Source of the DNA: Eledone cirrhosa
Lineage: Eukaryota
Length of the DNA: 64,000 bases
NCBI GenBank assembly: GCA_964016885.1
Contig: OZ024753.1
Coordinates: 12,152,001-12,216,000 of the forward strand
Direction of reading: 5' to 3'
Under the pieces are notes generated by a model that saw only the letters and a program-made list of their open reading frames with translations, had not been told where the DNA came from and searched no databases. Position 1 is the stretch's first letter. Every line of letters begins with the position of its first letter. The translations under genes and the position numbers were made by a program. Below, in pieces: positions 3,530 through 63,434 of the stretch.

Positions 3530-3735
3530 TAAACTTTGGGAGGGTCATGCTGCTAATAAAAACACATGCACCTGTCGCTTATCAATTCAATTTATTATAA
3601 ATTTCCTGTTGATTGGTTCAGTAACCCGATGACTGTTTATATATTGTCAAAGCATTTTAGTCACACATTCTGTGACCCCACGGTGTCTGATTATTTTGTG
3701 TCTCTCCTTTATTCTGTGCTTCGTCATCTTGTTTT
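3530..3735 (-). mobile_element. Degraded PLE pLTR/3' region copy
   Basis: Similar to 62178-62315 (attgtcaaa..ttt.gtc.cacattctgtgacc) and to the pLTR motif ttgggagggtcat. Confidence 0.55.
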
Positions 3736-3743
3736 TTTATGTA

Positions 3744-8095: not shown

Positions 8096-8283
8096 GGCGG
8101 TGGTGGATTGTCAGTATCGGTAGAGGATCGGACGCCATGCTTTCCAGCAGAGTTACGTCCCTTTACGATCTGAGTTCAAATCCCGCCGAGGTTGACTTTG
8201 CCTTTCATCCTTACGGGGTCGATAAAATAAAGTACCAGTAATGCACTGGGTAATTTGCTGGCCTTGTGCCAAATGTAGAAACA
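8096..8283 (+). mobile_element. tRNA-derived Nin-domain SINE
   Basis: B box GTTCAAATCC and Nin core. 15 bp TSD ATTATTTGGAAGTAT at 8081-8095 and 8284-8298. Confidence 0.9.
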
Positions 8284-8509
8284 ATTATTTGGAAGTATCT
8301 ACATCTTTCCATTATCATATCACTCCAGAACTCAGCATCACTATTATATCATAAGTGAAGGAACAATATATTTATATATTTCCAGGCATGAATAAATTGT
8401 CATGTTAATGGCTTTATATGTATGTTGTATTATGTGAAGATTTCCATCTATATGTAAACGTATGCGTATATAAAATCATTTGCTTTGCTTATTATATGAC
8501 TGTTTGAAT

Positions 8510-9880: not shown

Positions 9881-11631
9881 TTGAACTCTATGCCAAGAAC
9901 ATGGATGGGATGAAAAAAAATATTGACCTGGTTACAACGTTCTCAAAGGATATAGGAATGGAGTTTGGTCAAGATAAATGCTCATACATGACTGTAAAGC
10001 GGGGTACAACAAAAACCCAATCTAGCAACATTTTCATCAATGGTCTAACTGTTTCACCGATATCTGATGAGGACTGATACAGATACCTGGGGATAGATGA
10101 GAACATATCCTATAATGGTATCTGTAATAAAGAACGCGTAACCAGGGAATACTACACCCGATTAAGAAATATCTGGTCATCGGAACTCTCTGAGCAAAAC
10201 AAAACAGTGGCTCACAATGTGTTTGCTGTGCCTGTCCTAACATCAACGTTTGGAATACTCAATTGGACGATAGACGAAATCCGAGCAGTTGATGTTGGAA
10301 CTCGAAAAATACTGAACAACACCGGAAACTTCCACATCAAGAGTAAGATAGACCGCCTTTACTTGGAACGTAAGCAGGGAGGCAGAGGCCTAACATCAGT
10401 CCAGACAACATTTGAATGTCGCATCATATCTCTCCGACAACATATACGAACCTCGAAGCGTAGGCGCCCGCTTCTCGAGCAAGTATATCTGCATGAAACA
10501 GATAAGATCATGAGAGTTGGGAAGGAACTCCTTGAGAGATAATCCCTGTGTGATAAACAAAAACTCACACCCAGGGATGTCGCTCAGTAGTATCGCAGTG
10601 AATCCATGGATGAAAATCATTCATGGATATGTTGCCAGGAAGCTCCATAGTGAGAGTAATATAGATAACGAAAGTAGTCTATCTTGGACCAACAACCGCT
10701 ATATTTGCTCCCACTTTGAAGGATACGCTTTTGCAATCCAGGAATAGATTAGCACGAAATACCTGATTCACAAAAGAGATAGGGATGCAGGCAAAACACC
10801 TATATGTTATAACAAGTGCAGACTCTGCAGAACTAACATCGAGGATATCACCCATGTCATAAGCAGCTGTCCAAAGATGTCATCGCGGTGCCGTCTACCT
10901 ATGAGGCATGATGTAGTGGCCAAAACACTGTACAATGCAGTTCGTAAAAAAGATTGCCCCGATAATAAACATTAAAAGCTACAACAATGTGGAAGACATC
11001 CATGTACATAATATGAAAGGGTGGAATGTTCTAGTAAAAACCCCAATAAAATGCAGGCATAACAGACCAGATATTATGAGATGGGACAGGGAAAAGAAGG
11101 CATGCACAGTAGTGGAAATTAGCTGCCCAGCACATGCCAATATAATATCAAATATTAGTGAAAAGGAGAATATTGATGCAGAACTGATGAGAAATCTGCA
11201 GATACTCCACCCTGATTACACCTTCAGATTTATGCCTGTGATTATTGGGGCACTGGGAATGTTAGTAACTGCCTCAATACAAATCTTGAGAAGCTAGGCT
11301 TCACAGGAACAGAAAGAACACAACTAGTTAGAAACTACAAGTACAATCCATTAATGGAACAGTAAAAATATATAAAACATTCCAAAAATGTTGCATCTAA
11401 TAACTGCATATACACATGTACAAATACAAAGCATATACACATGCACACATACAACTCAAAACATCCACATCCACACATACAATAACATCCATATCTACAC
11501 ATGCATGCATGCATACATACATATCTTCCTAGTTGATATTGTGTAAATTCCAATGAGAGAGTCTTGTGTCTATGTTAGAAACCAACTCTCTCTCTATTGG
11601 TAAAACTTTGTGAAATTATAAAACCAGAAGA
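9881..11631 (+). mobile_element. 5'-truncated, decayed Dong/R4-clade non-LTR retrotransposon (RT C-terminus, CCHC, restriction-like endonuclease)
   Basis: Peptides FSKDIGMEFGQDKC, YLGIDE, DRLYLERKQGGRGL, CRLC...HVISSCP...RHDVVAK and RPDIM.WDREKK...VEISCP, interrupted by stops and frameshifts. Confidence 0.9.
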
Positions 11632-16300: not shown

Positions 16301-16672
16301 GAGGGCGGTGATTGGCAGTATCGGTAGAGAGTTACGGCCCTTTATGATCTGAGTTCAAATCCCGCCGAAGTTAACTTTGCCTTACGGGGTCGATAACATA
16401 AAGTACCAGTCACGCATTGGGGTCGATTTAATCGACTTTCCCCTCCCTTAAAAAATGCTGGCCTTGTGCCTATATAAGAAATCATTATTATGTGGATTGG
16501 CAGTATCGGTAGAGGGTCGGACGCCATGCTTTCCAGCATAGTTACGTCCCTTTGCGATCTGAGTTCAAATCGCGCCGAGGTTGACTTTGCCTTTCATCCT
16601 TACGGGGTCGATAAAATAAAGTACCAGTAATGAAATGGTGAATTGCTGGCCTTGTGCCTAAAGTAGAAACGG
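16301..16672 (+). mobile_element. Head-to-tail SINE dimer
   Basis: Two Nin-SINE units (16301-16490 and 16492-16672) enclosed by one 14 bp TSD, TTATTATTTGTGTC. Confidence 0.85.
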
Positions 16673-18445
16673 TTATTATTTGTGTCTATAATAAGAGTTC
16701 TGATATCTTGTGAACCATATTTCTTGAAGTAAACTCATAGTTCTAATATCTAGTTAATCCATGTTAGTTGAGGTAAACATGTTTCTATTCTGGCTTGTGT
16801 AGACATTCTGTCTTGCTGTTGTTGGAAAAAACAATATGGATACGAAACTATTAAATCAAGTTTTAATGTGAAAGTCTAACCGAAATAAAGTGCGCTTTCC
16901 ATGCTTTACGAAATATTATACAATGATACTAAGCATGCTAACAACATTTAAGTGTCTGAAAATCTCTATATAAATTTCTGGGATTCTGTCACATCACGTA
17001 AAGAGAGAGGAGTAGTTTGACTACCTCATACTAGTCCTCTTTCTTCTGCATATGTGTGTGTAAAATCAAGGAAGGGGATTGTGAATAATCTACGCTGTGT
17101 AAATGTGTGTGTGTCTGTGTTAATGTTTGTATGCGAGTGTATTTATGTGTGTCTGTGTTTGCGTCTTTATATCTCTATACTCATACATATACATGTCTGC
17201 ATATGTACATACACACGCACAAATATATACAGATACGTGTCAGTGTGTTGAAACAAATTCTAGTGCAATATATTATATTATTTTCTAGTATTGGCACAAT
17301 CATACATACTTTATAAAAGGTTAGATTCAACTTAATCTAATGGAATATTTGATGTGATATTATACTCGATTACATCGCGTCAGGTATATTATTATTAATA
17401 GATATTATCAACCGTACAAGCGTAAAAGAACAAAGTTGATCTCTGCGAGATTTTAACTCCGTAACAAAATATCATAAATCATTTTGTCAACCACGCACAC
17501 ATGTAAGCACGCAAGCACACACGCACGCACGCAAGCACACACGCACATACGAACGCACGTACGCCACATTCACTCACTCTCTATTTCTCTGTCTCTCTCT
17601 TACATGCTGTAAATCTGACTATACGGAATTATATATCTGCTGACATATACATATGTTGAATATGTATAACCAATATAACTAGAAATTCAATGTAGATAAT
17701 ATGGACACATGCGAAATAAAGGTCTGAATCTCGATCGTTTTGAAACAGTTATTTATTATTCCATTCTCTCCTATATTTACGTGTTTGCATGTCATCTCTA
17801 ACATATCTCAGCAAAGAAACACGACATGTTAATTCAACCTAACTCTTACGTTATAAAATATTATTTGTTATGTCTTCAAACATGTCATTATAAGCCTACA
17901 CAGATTTCAAGCAAATGCAAATTACCCAAAATGAGAGAGTGCACTTTCTTTATTTCGTTTAGTTTTGATATCTACTATAATTTATCTCTCTTCACAAGAG
18001 AGTGTCAAAAGAAAGTATATCTATGTACGTCATTTAAAATAGTTTTTATCAAACATATAAAGACATACTGCATAGAGCGTTCTAAAATTGCACAGTTAAT
18101 TTCGGTTGAATGTTGAGTATGCTTTATTTTATGATTCCTGATTCATTTGATACAGTTAGCATCAGAATTGTTTCTTTAGATTCTTCTTTAGTTTCTCTCA
18201 GTACTGCAGTTTTTTTTAGATTTCTCTGATATGTACTGTAATATGCTGCGTGAGAATTCAATCGACAATTAGTGCTGATACAAGTGAACCTAGCATGTAT
18301 TTTATTTAACTCAAACGACATTATCATTGAAATACCATTGAATATATTGTTATGCTATATTTCTTTTAAGTTTTGCATTTATATTCAGGACTGTCTTTCC
18401 TACTTAATCAATTAAAAAAGCAAATAATATCATTCATGAAATAAT

Positions 18446-18634
18446 TGTATCTACATTTGGCACAAGGCCAGCAATTATCCAGTGCATTACTGGTACTTTA
18501 TTTTATCGACCACGTAAGGATGAAAGGCAAAGTAAACCTCAGCGGGATTTGAACTCAGAATGGCAAGGGCCGTAACTCTATATGTCAAAGCATGTGCGTC
18601 CGACCCTCGACCGATACTGCCAATCCACCGCCCT
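18446..18634 (-). mobile_element. Nin-domain SINE
   Basis: Full SINE consensus with TSD ATGAAATAAT. Confidence 0.9.
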
Positions 18635-20830: not shown

Positions 20831-21222
20831 ATAGTATTTAAAATAAAACATTGCACTCCTATGGTTCATATAAACTTAATTATGTTTATTACTAAGGCTA
20901 AAAGATTTTATTTATATTTTCTATCATACCACATCTCAAACTAAATGTAATTACTGGCACGAAACCCATTACAAATACGAATGCGTACTCAGCCCTGTAA
21001 GTTTCTCTCAATGTTATTACCAACTCCCAAAGACCCATCAAATCCCAAGCCTTATTGGTGCCCAACCGTTCTGGATAACAATTACAATGGAACACAAACT
21101 TCCAAACACGCACACTCACAGATATATATATATAGTAATAATAAGTAATACGTTTTCAAAAGATCCTGTTAAGGGTGACAGAAGCGATTATTTGCTTAAA
21201 CATTAATCTATTCTTATAATAA

Positions 21223-21265
<43 letters not shown>

Positions 21266-21330
21266 GTGAACTTTCAACCGTCAAGGTTGTTTTTTCCACG
21301 GTTATGTCAATATTTAAAAAACAAATCTTG

Positions 21331-21397
21331 TATTTTATCTGATGAAAGCGCACCAAGTATGCCTTGGTTGTCCTTGAAATATATATATAATAAAATA
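21331..21397 (+). ncRNA. Type I hammerhead ribozyme
   Basis: TATTTTAT-CTGATGA-[AAGCGCACCAAG tatgc CTTGGTTGTCCTT]-GAAA-TATATATA-TA-ATAAAATA: perfect 8 bp stem I, intact core, palindromic stem III. Confidence 0.8.
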
Positions 21398-21432
21398 ATT
21401 ATGGTTTTATAAATATAGTTTCCATTTAATAT

Positions 21433-21491
<59 letters not shown>

Positions 21492-22677: not shown

Positions 22678-23377
22678 TCTATATATATAAAACTGTGGTT
22701 GTCTGTCTGTCTATCGATTTTTGGCACACATCTCCTCTTAGAATCTCTCACGGAATTGCACCGAAATTGCTATACTTGTACATTGAGCCCTAGCGAAGAC
22801 ATCGGAAAAAAATATTTTAAATTGACCCGCCCTATCTGACGAAATTGAATATAATGTATCGATTTTTGAGCGTAAGTGATCAGTTATTTCCCTTTGTTCT
22901 GTTTACATTGAGCGTCTGCGTGCAAAAATTAAAAAAATTACGCTACGCGTGCAGACAGACAGTCGTGCAGAGAGGTGATATACGCGTGCAGACAGACAGT
23001 CGTGCAGAGAGGTGATATAGGCGTGCAGACAGAATGTCGTGCAGAGAGGTGATATAGGCGTGCAGACAGACATAACTGATAATTTGGTTACGCTAATGTT
23101 TTTCTCTGCGTTGCAGTGTTTACATTTTCGATCTTTGTTAATAAATAACCAGTGCAGTTTTTATCCCCAGCATCGTCTTTTGTTATAACATTGGGGTTAT
23201 CGTTATGTTTTCTTAACTTCATAAGGCATATTGTTGGTTGAGGGAATATTAATCAAAAACACCACATGCAAGTCTGCACAGTAGAAACTACAGTTTTTAA
23301 GCCAAAAAAGAAACTTAACATTGTAACTTTAACACAGCTACTGAGCGACCCCGAGCAACGCCGGGCTTTACTGCTAG
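22678..23377 (+). mobile_element. Complete non-autonomous Helitron
   Basis: 5' A|TCTATATATATAAAAC with (GTCT)n. 3' hairpin CCCGAGCAACGCCGGG then CTAG|T. Internal ~36 bp tandem repeat, three copies plus a partial one (22947-23071). Confidence 0.85.
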
Positions 23378-23430
23378 TATGAAATAAAGTTAAATAAAAG
23401 TCAAATGATTAAAATTTAGCTTCGTTTATT

Positions 23431-23485
23431 ACGGCTATATATATTTCAGTTACAGCCATCTTTGGCTGCGATCTCTTCAGGCAGT
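23431..23485 (-). ncRNA. Type I hammerhead ribozyme (one stem I mismatch)
   Basis: Minus strand: ACTGC-CTGAAGA-gatcGCAGCCA aaga TGGCTGTaact-GAAA-TATATA-TA-GCCGT. Confidence 0.6.
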
Positions 23486-23879
23486 TTGAATTAGTATGGT
23501 ATAGACAAGTACATATGTTGTTTAGGTGTATAATATTGTCAATGCTCTGATATTCCCAGTTCCTGGTTGGGTTGTTATTTCACTGAGGAACTGGAGTCAT
23601 ATGAATTCAAACAAACGAATTTCAGTGTCAAAGGTCCTCTTCTCTTCTCATTGGTCAGTTATTAGAACATTCCTCATTCTAAGTGTTGTTATTGTTGGAG
23701 TTAGCTTAAAAATTGACAAAATGGTAGAAGGGACAAGGTGTTAAAGGAACAAAATAACAAAAAAAGTGTCAAACTTCCCATTGGTCAGTTCTGAGAGCAT
23801 TCCTCAGTCAGAAGTCTATAGAATTAATTCTGGGGTGGGGAGCCTCACCCCATATATTCATATATTAATTCAAAATATT

Positions 23880-24072
23880 AACAAAAATAGACATTCGTGC
23901 GATCAAGTATATTTTATTTCAGAGGTACTGAACAGTACGTCGTCATCAGATAAAATGAGATGATGCATGACATACCAAGACTTAGTAGATGGTTAAGATC
24001 CACCCTGTGGAGTGCTTCCAATCTATTGTAAAACTCATTCTTTGATTTATTCATTGAACACTGTTTAACCTT

Positions 24073-29057: not shown

Positions 29058-29391
29058 AAATAGGATTTCGCTTCAAGCATAGCTTTATACAATATGTATA
29101 AATATTTCGTATCTCCAAAGAAATACGGTTTGAGGAAGCCGTAGCTGGGCTAACGCCCTCTGGTGATGTCCAGCAAGGGGGACAACCGTCTATGCATTTC
29201 AGGCTTAACTGGCCTTCGTCAGACGGTCCCTCCCACCGCTTGCGACTGAATATATACTTCTGTCGTCTGTGTAAATAAGGTGATTAATCTCAGTTGCATA
29301 TGAAGCTGCATAAGTTGGCTCAACTTCTAATAAAAAAGAAATAGGATTTCGCTTCAAGCATAGCTTCATACAGTATGTATAAATATTTCGT
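29058..29391 (-). mobile_element. Retrozyme/pLTR-like unit: 281 nt monomer plus 53 nt terminal direct repeat
   Basis: aaataggatttcgcttcaagcatagc...aatatttcgt at 29058 and 29339, with an HHR in between. Confidence 0.65.
29185..29227 (-). ncRNA. Minimal type I hammerhead ribozyme
   Basis: Minus strand: ACCGT-CTGACGA-AGGC cagttaa GCCT-GAAA-TGCA-TA-(G)ACGGT. Stem III is palindromic (ATGCAT); there is one extra G at the base of stem I. Confidence 0.65.
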
Positions 29392-29631: not shown

Positions 29632-30655
29632 CATTCTTTATTAGCCACAAGGGCACAAAAGAAGGGGACAAATACAAATGAGGAGTTTACGTACAGGTAT
29701 ATGAAAATAAAACTATTAATAAAACAACAAATAACAATTGAAATCCCCAATAGGGGGGAGGTGTTGCACAGAGGTTATACACACCCCGAAAAAATGTACA
29801 ACCCTCATCTCCAGGAGCACCAAGAGTTAGTACTCCCTTCCTCTCTTCCTCTTTTTCCTCAACCTACAGGCTTATATAGAGAGAAGGCCCAACCACTCGG
29901 GCGTTCTTTGCCACATTCACCAACCTTTTATAAAATTTGCTGGGGTACAGCACCTCTCTCTCCATCCTGATTCTTCTTCCAAAATGATATTTGAAAAAAC
30001 GAATCAGTTGCTCGCCGGAGAGAAAGGTGTCTGACCTCAGACCTTTTAACCTCGTCCACCATATAACCTCTTTCACCATAGCCAAAACACATTGAAAACC
30101 GCCTCTCCCTCGTTTGTGAAGGAGGGTGGCGGTTTGATCATGACAATGGACTAGGTGGTCAACTGGATTGGTCCCACCCGCGACAATAGTCGTTCTACAT
30201 AGCCCCACAGGTCGGTAACGCCCGGGCAGTGTACAAATGCGTGTGCGACGGTTTCCTCGTCGCGCACGCATCTCGGACAGATCTTTCTCGAAGGGTCCCT
30301 ACTCGGGCGCCCGTGTCTGTAGAGCTTGTCTCGAACTGGTAGAGCTCCTCGGTAGCACTGCCAGGCCAGGGACTTTTGGAAGTTGTCCATTGGTCCCGGT
30401 CGGAAGGTCCTACCGAACAGACTGGCCAGTTCGTCCTCCTGTACGCCGAGAGTTTCTCCGAGCGTGTCGTCGCACTTGCTGCGGACCAACCCTCTATAGA
30501 ATATCGAAGTGGAGTCTCCACTGATCGCCGGGTTCGTTTGCCAGAGGACTGTGAGCGCCTGAGCACATTCGATATTCCAGTCGCCCATTTTCCTCGGTCT
30601 TTGCTTGACTTAGGTCTGCAGCTCGGTCAGCGAGACGAGTCGTGGGAAGGCTCGC
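29632..30655 (-). mobile_element. L1/Tx1-clade LINE 3' fragment (zf-RVT region plus 3' UTR)
   Basis: LAWQCYRGALPVRDKL...CPRC...EETVAHAFVHCP...LW motif. AATAAA on the minus strand near 29640; flanked by TA repeats. Confidence 0.85.
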
Positions 30656-33754: not shown

Positions 33755-34169
33755 AATAGTTAGAGAAGCAAAAAATTGTGATCCAGTTCTTGGTTAAGAA
33801 AGCCAGTTTCATGGATGGTTTCAACGTACGGTTAGGGGTAACTCCACAAGTTTGTAAGAATTCCGTTCAATCTTGGAGTATAAAGTATAAAAGAGAAAAC
33901 ACAGGTCAGCATTAGAGAAGGATTTTATCCAGGTATTTACGACCGTTTCATTGGTAAGTGCAACCTTATATTGCTATACTGCAATTAGCAGCCACTCAAT
34001 TATAATTGTTGTTCACAGTCCAAATTTTCAAAATAGTGAACAACAATTATAATTGAGTGGCTGTTATTTGCAGTTATAGCAACATAAGGTTGCACTTACC
34101 AATGAAACGGTCGTAAATACCTGGATAAAGTCCTTCTCTAATGCTTACCTGTGTTTTCTCTTTTATACT
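33735..34169. mobile_element. PLE-type pLTR fold-back (palindrome 33884-34169)
   Basis: Inverted arms of about 130 bp, each carrying the HHR 3' half GAAA-CGGTCG-TA. Homologous to the 42030-42498 element. Confidence 0.7.
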
Positions 34170-36033: not shown

Positions 36034-36540
36034 TGAATATAGACATAGAATATTCGAAAATATTCTGTATGTTTATAATAAACATTTTGAAGACCTAATC
36101 GCTATAGAATAGAATACGTCACGTATTACAATTAGATTCTCGATAAATTAGAAATTGGAATAAATGCTCTGAAATAGCGATATATATGTGAATATAGACA
36201 TAGAATATTCGAAAATATTCTGTATGTTTATAATAAACATTTTGAAGACCGGCAACCGCTCTTTCAAACCAGTTCCTGTACACAGCTAAGTATTCTATAA
36301 GTCTCTAGCTGTGTCATTCTCGATAAAAGCACTGGATATGTAGTCCTGATGATTTCTAACAAGAATGAAACGCGTAGATTACTTCCCTTGCTTTTATCGA
36401 GAATCTAATTGTAATACGTGACGTATTCTATTCTATAGCGATTAGGTCTTCAAAATGTTTATTATAAACATACAGAATATTTTCGAATATTCTATGTCTA
36501 TATTCACATATATATCGCTATTTCAGAGCATTTATTCCAA
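36034..36540 (+). mobile_element. Fold-back ribozyme-bearing element (pLTR/retrozyme-like)
   Basis: Perfect ~96 bp inverted arms (36155-36250 / 36445-36540). 36034-36147 is an inverted copy of 36393-36506. Central HHR. Confidence 0.75.
36340..36382 (+). ncRNA. Minimal type I hammerhead ribozyme
   Basis: GTAGTC-CTGATGA-tTTCT aaca AGAAt-GAAA-CGCG-TA-GATTAC with a GUA cleavage triplet. Stem I extends past an internal loop by 16 bp (36316-36331 / 36389-36404). Confidence 0.85.
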
Positions 36541-37959: not shown

Positions 37960-38317
37960 TAACACTGTTTACAATATAAACATTGTAGATCTTGATTGTC
38001 ATTCTAATATTGAAGACGATAAGATCTCTTTAAGAGTGAAAGCAGCGATTCTTTTCTTAAACTTTAATCTGTTATTTTAATAAATATTTTCTCTACGGTT
38101 CTTATATATTTGTTATATATTCATCCTTATCGAGCCCTCTTTCGATTTTAGTCTTCAAATTTATTATTATTATTAATATATATATATATATATTTATTAA
38201 AATAACAGATTAAAAGATTAAAGTTTAAGCAAATAATCGCTGCTTTCACCCTTAACGGGATCTTCTGAAACTCTTATCGAGCCCTCTTTGGATTTTAGTC
38301 TTCAATTTTATTATTAT

Positions 38318-38391
<74 letters not shown>

Positions 38392-38482
38392 CGTCTTCAG
38401 TATTAGAATGGCAATCAAGATCTACAAATGTTTACAATGTAAACATTTGTAGATCTTGATTGTCATTCTAATACTGAAGACG

Positions 38483-38484
<2 letters not shown>
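37960..38484. mobile_element. Cluster of direct and inverted pLTR-like repeats, including near-perfect palindrome 38390-38484
   Basis: 38020-38085 is the inverse of 38190-38265; 38126-38172 is approximately 38273-38318. A further copy lies at 21153-21225. Confidence 0.65.
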
Positions 38485-38827: not shown

Positions 38828-38855
38828 ATATATTTCGAAGTTCTATTAATATAAT

Positions 38856-39046
38856 TGTTTCAACTTCTGGCACAAGGCAGCAAGTACCCAGTGCATTACT
38901 GGTACTTTATTTATCGACCCCGTAAGGATGAAAGGCAAAGTTAACCTCGACGGGATTTTAACTCAGAATGGCAAGGGCCGTAACTATATACGTCAAAGCA
39001 TGGCGTCCGACCCTCTACCAATACTGCCAATCTACCGACCGAGGGG
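38856..39046 (-). mobile_element. Nin-domain SINE
   Basis: 15 bp TSD TTCTATTAATATAAT. Confidence 0.9.
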
Positions 39047-40323: not shown

Positions 40324-40695
40324 AGAGGGGTGTTGATTTGTCAGTATCGGTACAGGGTCGGACGCCATGCTTTGACGCATAGTTACGGCCCTTGCCATTC
40401 TGAGTTCAAATCCCGCCGAGGTTAACTTTGCTTTTCCTCCTTACGGGGTCGATAAAATAAAGTACCAGTAATACACTGGTTAATTGCTGGCCTTGTGCCA
40501 AAAGTAGAAACAATTATTATCGGTTGAAGGTCGGACGTCATGCTTTGCAGCAAAGAGTTACAGCCCTTTATGATCTGAGTTCAAATCCCGCCAAGGTTAA
40601 CTTTGCTTTTCATCCTTACGGGGTTGATAAAATAAAGTACCAGTAATGTAATGAGTAATTTGCTGGCCTTGTGTCAAAATTAGAACGAATTATTA
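40324..40695 (+). mobile_element. Two tandem Nin-domain SINEs
   Basis: The first unit is flanked by ATTATTATCGGT repeats, i.e. inserted at the 5' edge of the second. Confidence 0.85.
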
Positions 40696-40825
40696 TAATT
40701 ATGTACTCACGTGCTTGCACAGCCAGAAATATAAAGGTAATACGCACACATTCATACGCACGTTATTGCAAAAACACTCGAACACACGCACGCACGCACA
40801 CACACACGCACACACACACACTTTA

Positions 40826-42029: not shown

Positions 42030-42494
42030 GTATAGGATTATCCTAGATGTAGTAATGGTTAATTACTACACTGGATATGGTTGACGTACGGTGAGATGTT
42101 ACTCTACGAGTTATGGAATAATTGTTGAAGAAACTTAGTTCTTGATCCTTCTGTATTCCGGAGTGTGTACAAAGAATGAATAATAACAGACATCATAAAA
42201 AGGTAATTTATTCCGTGTGCTTACAAATGTTTCCACGGTGGTAATACAGCCTAGTTATGCTATGTGCAAATTTACAACTATTTGCAGAACTCAAATATCC
42301 AATGCTGTGACCACTGTATCATCAGAGCAGGATTCTGCTCTGATGATACAGTGGTCACAGCATTGGATATTTGAGTTCTGCAAATAGTTGTAAATTTGCA
42401 CATAGCATAACTAGGCTGTATTACCACCGTGGAAACATTTGTAAGCACACGGAATAAATTACCTTTTTATGATGTCTACCTGTTATTATTCATT

Positions 42495-42498
<4 letters not shown>
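42030..42498. mobile_element. pLTR fold-back with near-perfect ~160 bp arms (42171-42498)
   Basis: Axis at agagcag-gatt-ctgctct (about 42332). The arms are identical except for a small indel. Confidence 0.8.
42336..42447 (+). ncRNA. Hammerhead ribozyme with long loop II insertion (mirror copy on minus, ~42218-42329)
   Basis: TGCT-CTGATGA-TACAGTGGT-[~67 nt]-ACCACCGTG-GAAA-CATTTG-TA-AGCA with a GUA triplet. Confidence 0.65.
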
Positions 42499-45500: not shown

Positions 45501-46772
45501 TTCTCTTTTACTCTTTTACCGCCATCCGGTTGAGGCCATGCTGGGGCACCGCCCTTGTTGCTACACATTTTATCTCCAGCCTGTATAGGTTGGCCACTGG
45601 TGTAAGAGGGAGTTTGTTGCTGCTGCCCTTGGGTTTCCCTCGAGTCTTGCTGTGGGCTCATCCGGGATCCTGGATAACAAGGTGTCGAGATGTTTCTTAA
45701 AGACATCCACCTCCACGTCATGCAAGTCTCTCAGATGCCTCGGCAGCCTGTTGAAGAGTTGAGGGCCCTTGAATCCCAGGCTATTGCAATACCTGCTCCT
45801 TATTCTAGATGTGGAAGACGGGACCTTTGGCACCACACAGTGACGTCCTGTTCGACGGTTGGTCCAGCTCCCAATGCCAAAGTTTGGTGCTAGTCCCTCC
45901 AGGATTTTCCACATGTAGATCACTGCGTATCTCTCCCGTCTTCGCTCCAAGGAGTAGAGGTTCAGTTCCTTCAGCCTCTCCCAGTAGCTTGTCTCCCTCA
46001 TCTTGGCAATCCTCTTGGTGTAGCTTCGCTGGATTGCCTCAAGCTCCGTGGTTAGTTTGACACTATGGGGTGACCACAACTGGGAGAAGTAGTCCAGGCG
46101 GCTTAGGACAAAATCCTCCACAGTGTCAACATGGTATCTCGACCTCTTGTCCGGAAAGTCCTCAAGATCAAGCCAGCGAGTCGTCTGCACATTGTCGCTA
46201 CCTTCATGATGTGTGAAGAAAAAGATGCATCATCGCTCATGTCTATGCCCAGGTTTCGTATCGATTTTGACACGGGGATATCGGTCCCTCCTGGTCCTGT
46301 GTAGCTGTGTTCCACTATATTTGTGTTTGCAGGTTTGTATTGTAGGGCTTGGAATTTGCCAGCATTAAACTGCATGTTGTTTTCTTCGCCCATCTGTATA
46401 TGGCATCCAGATCTGCTGTAGAAGGGCAGCGTCAGCCGGGTTTTTGATTGCCTGTGCTACCTTAGTGTCATCAGCATAGCTAGTGAGGGATGTTGTTGTA
46501 TGCACCACAGAGGGCATGTCCAGAGAGCCACGAAAAACAGTAGTGGTCCAGGACTGTCTCCTGGGGCACACCACTTGTTATCGGTGTTTCCCTCGAGAGG
46601 GACCCATTTGCTGCGACTGCCTGGCTTCTGTCCCTTAGGAAGCCATGCAGCCACTCACCCACTTTTCCAGTTATGCCGAGTCCGTGTAGTTTGTGACATA
46701 TCATTCCGTGGTCGACCTTGTCAAAGGCCTTCGCAAAGTCAAGATATATCACGTCTACATGTGAGCTGTCTA
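45497..46772 (-). mobile_element. 5'-truncated CR1-clade LINE (frameshifted RT pseudogene)
   Basis: [43 protein letters not shown] and YWERLKELNLYSLERRRER motifs. Tail GTAAAAGAGTAAAAGAG; both ends lie in TA arrays. Confidence 0.93.
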
Positions 46773-46777
46773 GTAGT

Positions 46778-52760: not shown

Positions 52761-53627
52761 ATGCTAAGGGCCCAAATCACATTACACCCTTCTCTCTTCA
52801 GAATAATGACATAATCGATAATATAATACTATTGACATTATATCTGGAAAAAGAAATTCATAATGTACAGCTGAAATACCTTTCATCATAGGTCTGCAAG
52901 TTCATAGCGTTGGGAGATCTACGTTGCAATAGAAATAATGGAGATATTAAATATCCACAGAAAACTGCAGCTAAGTACAATAACACCCTGAGGAAATTTG
53001 TTCCTGTGACTTCAAGTCGAACATTAGGATGTTAAATGACTAATTTATTCAATAGTCATATAAGTATGAAGAGGTTAAATGGTAAATTTATTCAATAGCC
53101 ATGGTAGAATCAAAGCAAATCGGACTTAATCTTAATGAAATAAAACGTCCTCAACAAAGGTTACCGAATATACAGGGAATAAAGTATATTATCGAAAATT
53201 GTTTAGAAAAAATCAAAAGAAATTCGTTTGCATCGCAATATGAAATATAGAGCTGAGAATATAAAGAAAACTAATAACATAGTAAGAAACAAAACTAATC
53301 GAACAGTTTTGAAATAAAGGGCCAAACAAAACAACATATTTTACTGAATATTATCCTTTGTAAATTGTGAACATATATTTCATTGGAGTAAGTTATTTGA
53401 AAATAATGCTAAAACATTGCACTGAGATGCCCGGAGAAATGCATAATGGTGAAGGATAACTCATAAACATCAACGTAGATGAAAATACACTAAGCTAAAT
53501 CGTAAAGTAAACCACAGAAATAGAAAATAGACCTTTCAATGAAACCAAAAGCAGAATGAATTACAATATATAAATCCTAACATGTCCACATTTACTATTG
53601 TGGAATTTATTAATATTATCTGGATTG

Positions 53628-53815
53628 TGGTGGATTTGCAGTATCGGTAGAGGGTCGGATGCTATGCTTTGCAGCAAAGACTTACGGCCCTATATGATCT
53701 GAGTTCAAATCCCGCCGAGGTTAACTTTGCCTTTCATCCTTACGGGGTCGATACAAATAAAGTACCAGTCATACACTAGAATAATTGCTGACCTTGTGTC
53801 AAACGTAGAAACAAT
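53628..53815 (+). mobile_element. Nin-domain SINE
   Basis: B box and core; TSD-like ATTAT(C/A)TGGATTG. Confidence 0.85.
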
Positions 53816-54171
53816 TATATGGATTGATAACTTCGGTAGTCCCGAATGTATACTAATGCTTGTCCTTTCTAGCAAAAATAATAAACTAGTACCGCAGTGG
53901 TATAGCATCAATCCACAAAGACAGAAATGAGATACACAAACATATTAAAATAAACAACATTTTGTTGTCGGGTGAACAATTGGAAATGTATCAATGAAGA
54001 TGCTATATAATTATAAATTGGGATCTGAAAAACCTTTAGCCAGGAATAGTAGTCGACTATGTCTACGAGGTAAAACAATATATCATGTCTATATGATTTC
54101 AATGCTTATTAAATGTCAGGAATGGAGGGATGAGAGCGTTAAATGAAAATACGGAATATATATTCATTAAT

Positions 54172-54348
54172 TGTTTCTACTTTAGGCACAAGGCCAGCAA
54201 ATACCCAGTGCATTACTGGTACTTTATTTTATCGACCCCGTAAGGATGAAAGGCAAAGTCAACCTCGGAAGGATTTGAACTCAGATCGTAAAGGGACGTA
54301 ACTATGCTGGAAAGCATGGCCTCCGACCCTCTACATATACTGCCAATT
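54172..54348 (-). mobile_element. Nin-domain SINE
   Basis: TSD TATTCATTAAT. Confidence 0.9.
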
Positions 54349-54959: not shown

Positions 54960-56237
54960 ATTTATTTATTTGTTTTGTAAGGTATTTAATATGAAATCGT
55001 GTGTCGAAACAAATATTGTTATACTTGGGGATGGTCATAGTGTTATGAAGTGAAGGCGTGTGGCTGAGTGGTTAGAGAATTGGATTCGCAATCGTAAGGT
55101 TGTGAGTTCGATTCCTGGACCAGGCGATGCGTTATGTCCTTGAGCAAGACACTTTATTTCACGTTGCTCCTTCTACCTGGAGTTGCGACCGATAGATAGT
55201 ATTAGCAATTGGAAAGACCAACGGAAACATTGTTCCCTCGGTCCGATTTGACGAAAGTCAACCGTTCCTTATAGTGTTATGATATTGCCAGAAATAATAA
55301 CAGAACACACTCATTGTTTGATTTCCTAACTAACTGCATAATAGCCAGTATGGATGTAGTATCTCTGTACCCATCCATTAACAATGATTTTGCTTTGGAA
55401 AAAATGTGGGGAAATAATCAATGAGATCGAAGTAGAGTTCTGCGACGTCGACACAGATGAACTGGGCCTCCTACTTAGACTTACTACTTATGACACCGAA
55501 TACCGAGATAATCATGACCTTTGCTGATTCTGCCGCAGTTGACCTATATGAGGTAGACCCCCCCCCCCAACCACCACCACCACCATAACCACAATTTCTA
55601 AAAGGACTCCCATAGGAAGATGGATTGGATGGACCAAAGCGATACGGACACCCCAAAACAATGATCAGGTGAGATAAATAGGGGCTAGTATTAAAACTAC
55701 TCTAAAGGGCCATATGTTTATATTTAATCAAAAGATCTACACCCAGAATAAGGGAGCAGCAATTGGCGTCAGCATAGCTGGCGATGTTGCCAATCTATTG
55801 GTATGGTGGGTGAGGAGACTCTACCCCTTTAAGAAAACCTACTGTACGAATAAGAAATGTGTTATATGTAGAATGAACCACCAGATAAATTGTAAAACTA
55901 GATATGTAGTCTATAGTATAAGATGTACAGAGGGTACTTGTAGAAACATGACAAAAAGATACAAAGGTGAGACAGCTCGAAGCATAGGAGAAAGAATAGA
56001 GCAACTTCGGGGAGAGATAAAGGGACAAAAAAAGGAGACGGTTCAGTACTATATGAACACGCCAGACAAAAACATAACGGTAATATAGACAACATAGAAA
56101 TGACTCAACTGGTAGGCAAGTCAGAGAAACAACTGAGATAGAACTAAGAAGACCGATGTTGAACAGAAAGACCCAATGGAAAAACAAAAACAATCATACC
56201 CAAACAAACAATACTGACTTAAGGGAAACATAAATAA

Positions 56238-56282
<45 letters not shown>

Positions 56283-56700
56283 AGTACAATGACAACAAAC
56301 ACATATAAAAAAAACTAGTTAACAAAGATAGAATACGAAAACAAAAGAATAACATACCCTCAAACGCGAACGCAGAAACACAAACGCATGTGTAGAGACA
56401 GACAAAAATAAATAAATAAATTTAAAAAAAATGGCAATACAATACAATGGGAGGAAATATATTAGCACCACTGACGATGTCACAGATGTGTGACGAAAGA
56501 AATTTGATAGACTATATATATATTTTTTTATCTGTATTTTTAACCGATGGTCAACCAATGATAAACATTGATTGCCAAATAATTAACTATGGAGATATAA
56601 AAGATACAGAAGCGAAGACCAACCAAACAGTGAGTGTGTTCTGTTGTTATTTCTGGCAATATTATATCAATATGAACCTCCCCAAGTATAGTTATATATA
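54960..56700 (+). mobile_element. Penelope-like (Neptune-type) retroelement, internally deleted, with inverted 5' pLTR and direct 3' pLTR
   Basis: RT motifs IASMDVVSLYPSI and YTQNKGAAIGVSIAGDVANL are fused to the GIY-YIG region C...C.IC...CKTRYVVYSIRC...YKGETARSIGERI. Inverted pLTR at 54960-55320. Confidence 0.85.
55049..55270 (+). mobile_element. tRNA-derived CORE-like SINE nested in the pLTR
   Basis: A box TGGCTGAGTGG, B box GTTCGATTCC and CORE-like TGTCCTTGAGCAAGACACTT. 12 bp TSD ATAGTGTTATGA. Confidence 0.85.
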
Positions 56701-59480: not shown

Positions 59481-59765
59481 TGTAAAGTTATATTTAAAAT
59501 TGTTGGGTTACAACTAGTAAATATTTATAACTAATATAAAAGCACTCGACAAATATTTGGAGTATATTTACAATATTAAATAAATGGAAAACTATATTTA
59601 TAAAACCATATTTATTTCATTATATATATTTCGGGGATATCATATTAACAATATGCTATGCCTTCATCAGACAAAATACAATATAAACAGTTTTATAGAT
59701 AAATATATTCGACATACCGTAATAAACATCAACGTCATTTGAAGAGGTTTACTCTAGTTTACTCT
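59479..59765 (-). mobile_element. ~285 bp HHR-bearing island between TA arrays (same family as 21260-21435)
   Basis: The flanks align with the 21.3 kb copy (ggttatgtc.aatattt...ttgtatttt.tctgatgaa; tatggttttataaatatagttttccattta). Confidence 0.75.
59613..59678 (-). ncRNA. Type I hammerhead ribozyme
   Basis: Minus strand: TATTTTGT-CTGATGA-aGGcATAgCATATT gtt AATATGaTATcCCc-GAAA-TATATA-TA-ATGAAATA. Stem I is preserved by G-U pairs. Confidence 0.75.
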
Positions 59766-62169: not shown

Positions 62170-63138
62170 ATCCGGGTTATTGGTTGGTTCCACAACCAGA
62201 TGGTTGTTCATACATTGTCAAATTCTTTCGTCGCACATTCTGTGACCTCTTCAGTGACTGGGAATTCATTTCTTTGTTTTGGTGCCTCTCCTTTGTTCTT
62301 TCCTGCGCCATCTTGTTTCTGTGTGTGTGTGTTGTGTGCTCAGTCTGCGCATGCGCCACATCCGGGTGTCTGTGTGTTTATATTCGTTTATTTATTTGTT
62401 TATTTACATGTTACTGGTTGGTTGGTTGTTCTATGTGCGTGTGTGTTTTCAATTTGTCCTTAATTGTAAGTTGAGATGTTCCTGTTCCACTCATGATTTC
62501 TATTTAATTTTGGTTGTAATTCTTTTATGTTTATTGCCTCTATGATTTGCCTAAACATTGCGTCTTTTCTGTGTGTAGATTCTATTTTTTATTTCTATGT
62601 TGTCTAATTTACCCTTATGTTCTATTTTAGCATGTTGGTAGAGTACAGATGATTTTTTACTATCTTGAAGGTCTCGCCAATGTTAATTTATCCGTTCCCA
62701 TATACTACGAGCTGTCTCACCTATGTACACTATATTTTTATCTCTACATTGTCCTTCAGTACATCTTATGCTATATACTACATTTCTAGTTTTACAGTTA
62801 ATATGGGCGCTTAATTTACATATTATACATTTCTTGTCTATACAGGGAGTTCTTTGAAAAGGGTATGTCTTGCTAATAACTGTTTTTATGGAGGTACCTG
62901 GTGTTTCTACTATCTTAATATTGAGTTCATGTTTATTTAGGGCCCTTCTAAATGTGTAAGCTAATTCACCTCTAGGGGTTGTATCGATGAACATTACACT
63001 CTGGTATTTATTGCTATTATACCATGAGTTTATTCTATTAGCCTTATTCCTAGTTCTTTCTATTCTATTCTAAAATGTGCTCCTATACAAGGGGCAGGTC
63101 CCATTTGTGTCATTATTTGCCATTTTTTCTCATTTGGT
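62170..63138 (-). mobile_element. Penelope-like element 3' part (GIY-YIG endonuclease region, 3' UTR, pLTR with HHR-like motif)
   Basis: ORF 62683-62994 reads C.DKKCIIC...CKTRNVVYSIRC...YIGETARSIWERI. The motif GTCA-CTGAAGA-gGTCAC..GCGAC-GAAA-GAATT-TGAC is at 62258-62217. Confidence 0.85.
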
Positions 63139-63204
63139 TATATATATATATATATATGTATATTTATAATATAAGATCAAAAGATGGTTAAAGGAGTTCC
63201 ATAT

Positions 63205-63271
63205 ATTTTATTATGCGCATTTCAAAAACAAACATCATCAAGCAATAATATTTGTTTTCATCAGATAAAAC
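63205..63271 (-). ncRNA. Type I hammerhead ribozyme
   Basis: Minus strand: GTTTTAT-CTGATGA-AAACAAATATTATT gctt GATGATGTTTGTTTtt-GAAA-TGCGCA-TA-ATAAAAT. Enclosed by a 17 bp IR at 63166-63182 / 63333-63349. Confidence 0.8.
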
Positions 63272-63434
63272 AGGAGAACATGATATGAAGGCTAAAAAAC
63301 ACTTGTTGATAGTGTAGTTTTAAATCAACTTGTTTTGATCTTATATTATGCATACTCCAGTCCACAAACTGTAGAGTGCTTCTTATCCGATATCTGCATT
63401 GCTTTATTGTACTACAATAAAACTCACCTCCTAC

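What the first reader, a model, noticed from the sequence alone, without database searches (positions are those of the whole stretch)
21260..21435. Same-family HHR copies keep the fold while stem II sequence is completely replaced
Seen: the 21.3k (+) and 59.6k (-) copies share flanks and core, but stem II is ACCAAG/CTTGGT in one and CATATT/AATATG in the other. Stem I changes are G-U compatible. The 63.2k and 23.9k copies have the same stem I (TTTTAT/ATAAAA) with two further stem II hairpins. Inference: structure-level selection acted on the source elements, which is good evidence for functional ribozymes. Stem III is itself a (TA)n tract, so the ribozyme includes the microsatellite motif these elements sit beside.
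Basis: partly seen in the sequence, partly recalled or inferred. Interest (0 to 1): 0.7.

Follow-up and report, generated by a model that had tools for sequence, protein, structure and literature searches.

The report
Decayed Penelope-type hammerhead ribozyme copies
These are real hammerhead-ribozyme motifs in short, high-copy repeats sitting in microsatellites, likely the broken ends of Penelope-like jumping genes; their paired regions are conserved while the loop varies, an already described pattern, and nothing here shows that these particular copies still cut.

Summary
The motifs are real: 4 strict hammerheads in the window against a mean of 0.01 in 200 shuffles. Copies A (21.3k, +) and B (59.6k, -) are one family. 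In register 6 of 12 letters match on each arm, with 4 compensatory changes, 2 broken pairs in B and a shared C·C mismatch. Two copies alone give weak statistics (P 0.02-0.12). Genomic reads show a high-copy family (about 2,400-2,600 contigs laid) with an invariant core and inner stem II arms but a variable loop, which does support constraint on the source elements. Linked covariation was not measured. The 63.2k and 23.9k copies share no flanks with A/B, and 23.9k lacks stem III and the cleavage triplet. Stem III is a palindrome, (AT)n in only 3 of 6 complete motifs; two copies of A are predicted to fold as a double hammerhead. This matches the published dimer-type hammerheads of Penelope-like elements. 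No coding frame was linked to the family and no cleavage or expression was shown. Ordinary.

The parts
21262..21434 (+). Copy A: 173-nt repeat fragment between two microsatellites, likely the 3' end of a 5'-truncated Penelope-like element
   Evidence: the element type is inferred
21215..21261 (.). (TA)n tract on the 5' side of A
21331..21338 (+). Stem I, 5' strand
21339..21345 (+). Core CUGAUGA (C3-A9)
   Evidence: no variant row shown
21346..21375 (+). Stem II: 3 bp, C·C mismatch, G·U, C-G, one-letter bulge, 6 bp, 5-nt loop 21358-21362
21376..21389 (+). GAAA, 10-nt palindrome 21379-21388 (stem III, predicted dimer interface) and H17 = A21389; predicted cleavage 3' of 21389
21390..21397 (+). 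Stem I, 3' strand
21398..21434 (+). Conserved tail after the ribozyme (first 21 nt: 20 identical in B)
21435..21490 (.). (TG)n tract on the 3' side of A
59613..59678 (-). Copy B, same family as A; 8-nt (AT) palindrome; two broken stem II pairs; predicted to misfold
63204..63272 (-). Motif C: same stem I and core, 14-bp stem II, palindrome ATGCGCAT; flanks unrelated to A/B
23910..23957 (-). Motif D: stem I, core and stem II present; stem III and cleavage triplet absent
36340..36382 (+). Motif E, unrelated family, palindrome ACGCGT (not in the finding)
23430..23486 (-). Motif F, unrelated family, 8-nt (AT) palindrome, one mismatch in stem I (not in the finding)
29184..29229 (-). Motif G, unrelated family, palindrome ATGCAT, one C short at the stem I/core junction (not in the finding)
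62439..63129 (-). Broken coding remnant with Cys/His and GIY-YIG-like motifs (motif names recalled), downstream of C across a short (TA)n; has its own, different hammerhead-like motif at 62254
55326..56212 (+). Second remnant of the same protein family, RT-like part followed by endonuclease-like part; hammerhead-like motif at 56471

Best explanation
A and B are diverged copies of one high-copy dispersed repeat that carries a type I hammerhead motif with a palindromic stem III, and they are likely the 5'-truncated 3' ends of Penelope-like retrotransposons inserted in microsatellites. Shown: the motif, the kinship of A and B, the high copy number, and the pattern of invariant core and arms with a variable loop. 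Inferred mechanism: in a tandem or read-through transcript of an active source element two motifs swap strands through the palindrome and stem I to form a double hammerhead that would cut after AUA, probably slowly and helped by the element's protein. Reverse transcription likely starts downstream, at the end of the conserved tail, so that copies keep the whole ribozyme plus about 45 nt. Source lineages likely diverged stepwise under selection for pairing, which gave the A-type and B-type stem II. After insertion the copies likely decayed neutrally, and a lone genomic copy would be largely inactive.
For: Motif excess over shuffles. The minimum-energy fold of two copies of A is the full double hammerhead (-27.0 kcal/mol), whereas the monomer folds stem II only; 3 of 6 complete motifs (A, C, E) give that dimer and G nearly so. 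In organism A, 2,359, 2,386 and 2,595 contigs of three runs of one sample lay on the stretch. Positions with a shown variant row: stem I 5' plus core 0 of 15, inner stem II arms 0 of 10, loop 4 of 5 (P 0.004), upstream flank 17 of 57 (P 0.015 against the core), tail 1 of 26. 7 of 9 substitution rows at paired positions outside the bulge zone are pairing-compatible. Loose ends show family 3' arms that would pair where A and B do not. A vs B: 4 of 5 two-sided changes restore Watson-Crick pairs. Cervera & de la Peña 2014 (PMC4209133) describe such motifs in Penelope-like elements: dispersed singles, long helix II, palindromic helix III, covarying families, weak cleavage as dimers. Craig 2021 (PMC8557442) reports (TA)n insertion and hammerheads near the element end. 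Frangieh 2024 (PMC11167929) shows internal initiation defining a tail, and a protein-assisted hammerhead. Two coding remnants of Penelope-like layout lie in the same window.
Against: No coding frame is linked to the A/B family: tblastn with 150 relatives of the window's remnant hit only the two remnants. Rfam finds nothing at gathering score in the window and no hammerhead family among 12 weak matches at A. Two-copy statistics are weak: 2-12% in simulation; stem II energy is matched by 4.6% (A) and 8.8% (B) of shuffles; whole-motif monomer z is -0.68 and +0.79. 7 of 9 compatible changes gives only P 0.09. One search gives columns, not linked changes, hides 19 of 59 substitution rows, and keeps only records at least 80% like A, which favours apparent conservation. 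B and F do not fold as double hammerheads. The G10.1-C11.1 pair and the unpaired letter before helix II, typical in PMC4209133, are absent in A. No cleavage or transcript was observed.
Confidence: 0.8

Rival explanations
1. The compensatory look of stem II comes largely from template-switch (quasi-palindrome) mutation, which copies one arm from the other in one event, and not from selection on each pair.
For: Stem II arms are far more diverged between A and B (12 of 24 letters) than stem I plus core (14 of 15) or the tail (20 of 21). Changes co-locate on both arms (5 of 6, P 0.04). The mechanism is described in PMC8794818 (abstract).
Against: It cannot explain the invariant single-stranded core, the shared C·C mismatch (a switch would erase it), or inner arms that show no variant rows while the loop varies. 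It can supply the variants on which selection then acts.
Confidence: 0.1
2. The repeat is a non-autonomous hammerhead element (dispersed retrozyme monomer or ribozyme-bearing SINE) moved by a Penelope-like protein in trans, not the truncated end of a coding element.
For: No frame was found upstream of A or B. Animal retrozymes are proposed to derive from Penelope repeats, and solo monomers occur (10.64898/2026.07.22.740005).
Against: A and B are single, 173 and about 200 nt, not in tandem arrays. Read depth falls steeply towards the 5' side, which fits truncation but also divergence. Retrozyme hammerheads are mostly canonical with loop 1-loop 2 contacts (PMC7229834); those contacts were not tested here.
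Confidence: 0.12
3. The fold is kept as a protein-binding or reverse-transcription landmark and self-cleavage is incidental.
For: In a Poseidon element, hammerhead mutants did not affect insertion in vitro and no RNA-seq reads began or ended at the cut site (PMC11167929). The tail here is as conserved as the core.
Against: The catalytic letters, a permitted cleavage triplet and the palindrome are all kept, in several unrelated families.
Confidence: 0.07
4. Chance motifs in AT-rich DNA.
For: Similar patterns gave chance hits elsewhere: 2 and 10 viral, 14 metagenome and 1 genome locus.
Against: None of the 16 loci examined had a palindromic stem III, and none of the 10 a paired stem I; the window has 4 strict motifs against 0.01 and 6 relaxed against 0.12.
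Confidence: 0.01

Closest known systems
Minimal and short-helix-III type I hammerheads of metazoan Penelope-like elements (Cervera & de la Peña 2014, PMC4209133; Lünse et al. 2017, seen only through the review PMC6765202)
   Same: Type I topology, CUGANGA/GAAA core, long helix II, palindromic helix III, predicted dimer, dispersed single copies, families with compensatory changes.
   Different: A lacks G10.1-C11.1 and the unpaired letter before helix II; it has a 3-bp base plus a C·C mismatch, an 8-bp stem I and an 8-10-nt (AT) palindrome. No link to a coding frame shown.
Hydra- and Neptune-clade Penelope-like elements that insert in microsatellites (Craig et al. 2021, PMC8557442)
   Same: (TA)n surroundings; hammerhead close to the 3' end of the element.
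   Different: 0 of the 26 Hydra rows of File S2 have a pure (AT)n helix III; 6 A/B-type strings (stem I plus core, core plus stem II, stem II plus GAAA, tail) gave 0 hits in the supplement (line breaks can hide hits). Clade of this family not determined.
Non-LTR retrozymes (Cervera & de la Peña 2020, PMC7229834)
   Same: Short non-coding repeats with type I hammerheads in animals.
   Different: A and B are not in head-to-tail arrays; circular RNA not tested.

Membership tests
Type I hammerhead ribozyme | CUGANGA and GAAA core with NUH triplet | tested here: met
   A, B, C, E, F; not met in D (no triplet); G one letter short
Type I hammerhead ribozyme | Three helices, open at helix I | tested here: met
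   Stem I 8 of 8 pairs in A and B; stem II; stem III 3 bp as monomer or 10 bp as dimer
Type I hammerhead ribozyme | Match to an Rfam hammerhead model | tested here: not met
   0 matches at gathering score; no hammerhead among 12 weak matches. Whether Rfam models this variant was not checked.
Type I hammerhead ribozyme | Self-cleavage 3' of H17 | not testable with these tools
   needs an in vitro assay
Penelope-element dimer-type hammerhead | Palindromic helix III allowing a double hammerhead | tested here: met
   4 of 5 distinct cores in the scan that did not ask for a palindrome have one; cofold gives the double hammerhead for A, C, E
Penelope-element dimer-type hammerhead | G10.1-C11.1 pair and unpaired letter 5' of helix II (typical, not universal) | tested here: not met
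   A has A-U at the base and no extra letter; A-U closing also occurs in published Hydra rows
Penelope-element dimer-type hammerhead | Family-wide covariation | tested here: inconclusive
   Column pattern fits; linked changes not measurable; two copies P 0.02-0.12
Penelope-like element | RT plus GIY-YIG frame upstream of the repeat | tested here: inconclusive
   Only 70-95 nt of non-microsatellite sequence lie upstream of stem I in A and B; no tblastn hit there; no genome held
Penelope-like element | High-copy, dispersed, 3' part most abundant, microsatellite surroundings | tested here: met
   depth is no copy number, and D and F lie 1,240 and 759 nt from the next 3' microsatellite
Non-LTR retrozyme | Head-to-tail repeats of 150-450 nt each with a hammerhead | tested here: not met
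   no such array at A, B, C or D; other loci of the genome not seen
Non-LTR retrozyme | Abundant circular RNA | not testable with these tools
   no RNA run was available to lay

The most novel reading that the evidence does not exclude
The (AU)n stem III does double duty: after self-cleavage the upstream RNA ends in an (AU)4-5 run that anneals to a nicked (TA)n tract and primes reverse transcription, so the ribozyme itself supplies microsatellite targeting. Against it: A, B, C and F all continue past the cut site, the tail is the most abundant part in the reads, motifs with other palindromes (C, E, G) lie in the same surroundings, (TA)n-targeting Hydra elements lack an (AT)n helix III, and a tested element starts reverse transcription internally. 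Not excluded, because contigs break at microsatellites and 236 loose-end rows were hidden.
Probability: 0.04. Interest if true: 0.7.

Novelty: new member of a known kind. Interest (0 to 1): 0.2.

Why it matters
It adds an apparently uncatalogued, very abundant family to a known class. A family with thousands of variants would be good material for an open question: whether Penelope hammerhead stems evolve by stepwise compensation, template switching or RNA-level replication, and whether cleavage is needed at all. The finding as written does not answer this.

Tried and rejected
No genome is held for the window, so copies could not be collected. Pattern scans for relatives found only chance hits: viral 2 and 10 loci, metagenomes 14, prokaryote genomes 0 and 1, inspected. 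No RNA holder listed; this says nothing about expression. Pfam gave no family for the two coding remnants and a sub-threshold RVT_1 match in 2 of 8 longer relatives, so their naming rests on recalled motifs and layout. The word-based protein search found nothing. Sequence-only MAFFT misaligns the 3' arm of stem II, so stem II pairs were counted by register in a script; that register was chosen after seeing the data. One search had columns off by two and was redone. Trans-cleavage of pure (UA)n RNA rejected by inspection: the letter after the triplet would not pair with stem I. Reading D as a hammerhead without helix III rejected: stem I then fails to pair. C as the upstream repeat of the 63.1k coding remnant is unlikely: that remnant's downstream motif (62254) has a different stem II. 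Whole-window ORF and repeat listings were swamped by microsatellites. Earlier findings by place and sequence: none. Lünse et al. 2017 could not be read.

Full report
Setting. The window is AT-rich, microsatellite-dense animal-like DNA full of repeat fragments. That it may be a cephalopod is a recalled resemblance that no call tests. No genome is held. Rfam gave 0 matches at gathering score.

The motifs. A scan for CUGANGA, GAAA, a UH triplet and at least 5 bp of stem I hit 5 distinct cores. Four have a palindromic stem III: A (21339, +), B (59670, -), C (63264, -) and E (36346, +). With the palindrome required, the window has 4 against a mean of 0.01 (maximum 1) in 200 dinucleotide shuffles. 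A relaxed scan adds F (23480, -) and G (29222, -): 6 distinct motifs against 0.12 in 100 shuffles. D (23949, -) has stem I, core and a stem II, but GAA runs straight into the 3' strand of stem I, so it has neither stem III nor a cleavage triplet.

Which copies are kin. A and B align at 78% over 106 nt and share both flanks (z 4.7 and 9.2, 0 of 500 shuffles each). None of the other 40 flank comparisons among A-G exceeds z 2.4. C and D therefore share only the short stem I/core motif with A/B and cannot count as covarying copies.

Stem II in register. Counted from the base, A reads AU AU GC C·C GU CG (bulge) AU CG CG AU AU GC, and B reads A·C GC GC C·C AU UA AU G·A CG AU UA AU UA UA. Five positions change on both sides, of which 4 restore a Watson-Crick pair and 1 does not; two change on one side, one compatible and one broken. 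So the stem is heavily substituted and extended, not replaced. Applying 6+6 random changes to A's arms keeps at least 9 of 12 pairs in 2.2%, 5.6% or 12% of trials, depending on transition bias, and the register was chosen after seeing the data. Stem I shows 2 one-sided G·U changes in 8 pairs and no two-sided change. Two copies are suggestive only.

The family. Three runs of one sample hold part of A. Laid at 80% likeness, 2,359, 2,386 and 2,595 contigs and 24,752 reads of a fourth run cover the stretch: a high-copy family with many lineages. Among the 40 shown of 59 substitution rows, positions with a variant are: upstream flank 17 of 57; stem I 5' strand plus core 0 of 15; inner stem II arms 0 of 10; loop 4 of 5; GAAA to H17 1 of 14; stem I 3' strand 2 of 8 (both A>G, G·U-compatible); tail 1 of 26. 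Loop against arms gives P 0.004, flank against core P 0.015. By type of change, the shown rows can account for all 35 calls of run X1, so the hidden rows seem mostly to come from the raw-read run (inference). Of 9 substitution rows at paired positions outside A's bulge zone, 7 are pairing-compatible (P 0.09); the two exceptions are at the pair closing the loop. Loose ends show two kinds of 3' arm, one like A and one like B, that would pair where A has its G·U and bulge and where B has G·A and A·C; these defects are likely private decay. A 2-nt shorter palindrome is common (45-46 contigs per run). Caveats: columns only, no linkage; records unlike A are excluded; depth is no copy number.

Stem III. 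It is (AT)n in A, B and F, but ATGCGCAT, ACGCGT and ATGCAT in C, E and G. What is shared is self-complementarity. Alone, A folds only stem II (-9.1 kcal/mol; the active monomer scores -7.1). Two copies fold as the complete double hammerhead (-27.0). C and E do likewise and G nearly; B (active dimer -14.4 against -20.9 for a misfold) and F do not. (AT)n is simply the AT-rich palindrome and stays palindromic under slippage. None of the 26 Hydra rows in Craig's File S2 has a pure (AT)n helix III, although nearly all those families insert in (TA)n.

Context. Two broken coding remnants (55.3-56.2k, +; 62.4-63.1k, -) are 62% identical over 63 residues. One has 964 relatives at E up to 0.001; 2 of 8 relatives scanned show a weak RVT_1 match. 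[quoted passage not shown] Each is followed by a degenerate hammerhead-like motif of a different family. tblastn with 150 relatives hit only these two places, so the A/B family is not tied to a frame here.

Mechanism. Shown: motif, kinship, copy abundance, pattern of conservation. Predicted by folding: dimer dependence. From the literature, by analogy: slow cleavage as dimers (PMC4209133), protein-assisted cleavage that was not needed for insertion in vitro, and internal start of reverse transcription that leaves a tail (PMC11167929). Inferred: A and B are 5'-truncated insertions from two source lineages that diverged under selection for pairing, then decayed. Template switching (PMC8794818) may have supplied multi-base changes; stem II is more diverged than its neighbours, but that route would not keep the core or the C·C mismatch.

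Known or new. PMC4209133 already lists families full of covariation, palindromic positions 15.2-16.2 and dispersed single motifs as features of Penelope hammerheads. Searches for hammerhead with octopus or cephalopod listed no title on this family, and 6 A/B-type strings were absent from Craig's supplement; Repbase and Dfam were not searched. The C·C mismatch (A, B, D) was not mentioned in what I read, but I ran no search for it. A C four letters after the core is seen in 10 of 10 hammerhead-like motifs against 4 of 21 other core matches; it is also in 16 of 26 published Hydra rows, so it is probably a general trait.

What I saw of each paper. PMC4209133: parts 1-2 of 4. PMC8557442: passages, section 11, supplement part 2 of 59 and term searches. 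PMC11167929: parts 1-2 of 4. 10.64898/2026.07.22.740005: part 1 of 5. PMC6765202 and PMC7229834: passages. PMC8794818: abstract and opening. Lünse 2017: nothing but its reference and the review's summary. Figures and the supplements of the 2014 paper were not seen and may already show the stem II features noted here.

Verdict. Real motifs, a partly mistaken comparison, a broadly right inference about the source elements, and a known kind of element. Interest 0.2.

Noticed in passing
window 36340-36382 (+), 23430-23486 (-), 29184-29229 (-): Three more hammerhead motifs of unrelated families (E, F, G), each with a palindromic stem III. G lies between 53-nt direct repeats (29058-29110, 29339-29391; 96%), E inside a partly inverted and duplicated block (36036-36540).
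   Followed up: partly
window 54438 (+), 56471 (+), 62254 (-), 3595-3742: Degenerate hammerhead-like motifs of one further family with a GTCAC stem II arm; two lie downstream of the coding remnants.
   Followed up: partly
window 21154-21212, 38021-38087, 38212-38270, 38391-38483: Another repeat family with a hammerhead-like core ends just upstream of the (TA)n before A, so two families share one microsatellite; 38391-38483 is a near-perfect inverted repeat whose arms end a few letters after CTGAAGA at microsatellites.
   Followed up: no
window 42172-42497, 33884-34169, 1309-1561: Long fold-back inverted duplications (91-97% identity, 250-330 nt) next to microsatellites; the first turns a few letters upstream of a CTGATGA. 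Inverted insertions are typical of Penelope-like elements.
   Followed up: no
all ten hammerhead-like motifs; stem II of A, B, D: C at the fourth letter after CUGANGA in 10 of 10 motifs against 4 of 21 other core matches; it faces another C in A, B and D. Possibly a tertiary contact; also common in published Hydra motifs.
   Followed up: partly
window 21398-21434 and the tails of B and C: ATGG...CCAT recurs downstream of stem I in A, B and C with different spacers; 4 bp only, may be chance.
   Followed up: no
window about 22690-23380: Repeat that begins near TC and ends in a short GC hairpin plus CTAG, Helitron-like (motif recalled); a similar end is joined to position 21384 in 297 reads of run X4.
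   Followed up: no
window 8100-8290, 16492-16677, 18440-18633, 38851-39040, 40338-40696, 53627-53823, 54168-54347 and others: Many copies of a roughly 185-nt SINE-like repeat, 80-95% alike.
   Followed up: no
window 10078-11297, 29864-30609, 45570-46776: Fragments that look like non-LTR retrotransposon frames; 30151-30609 matches zf-RVT.
   Followed up: partly
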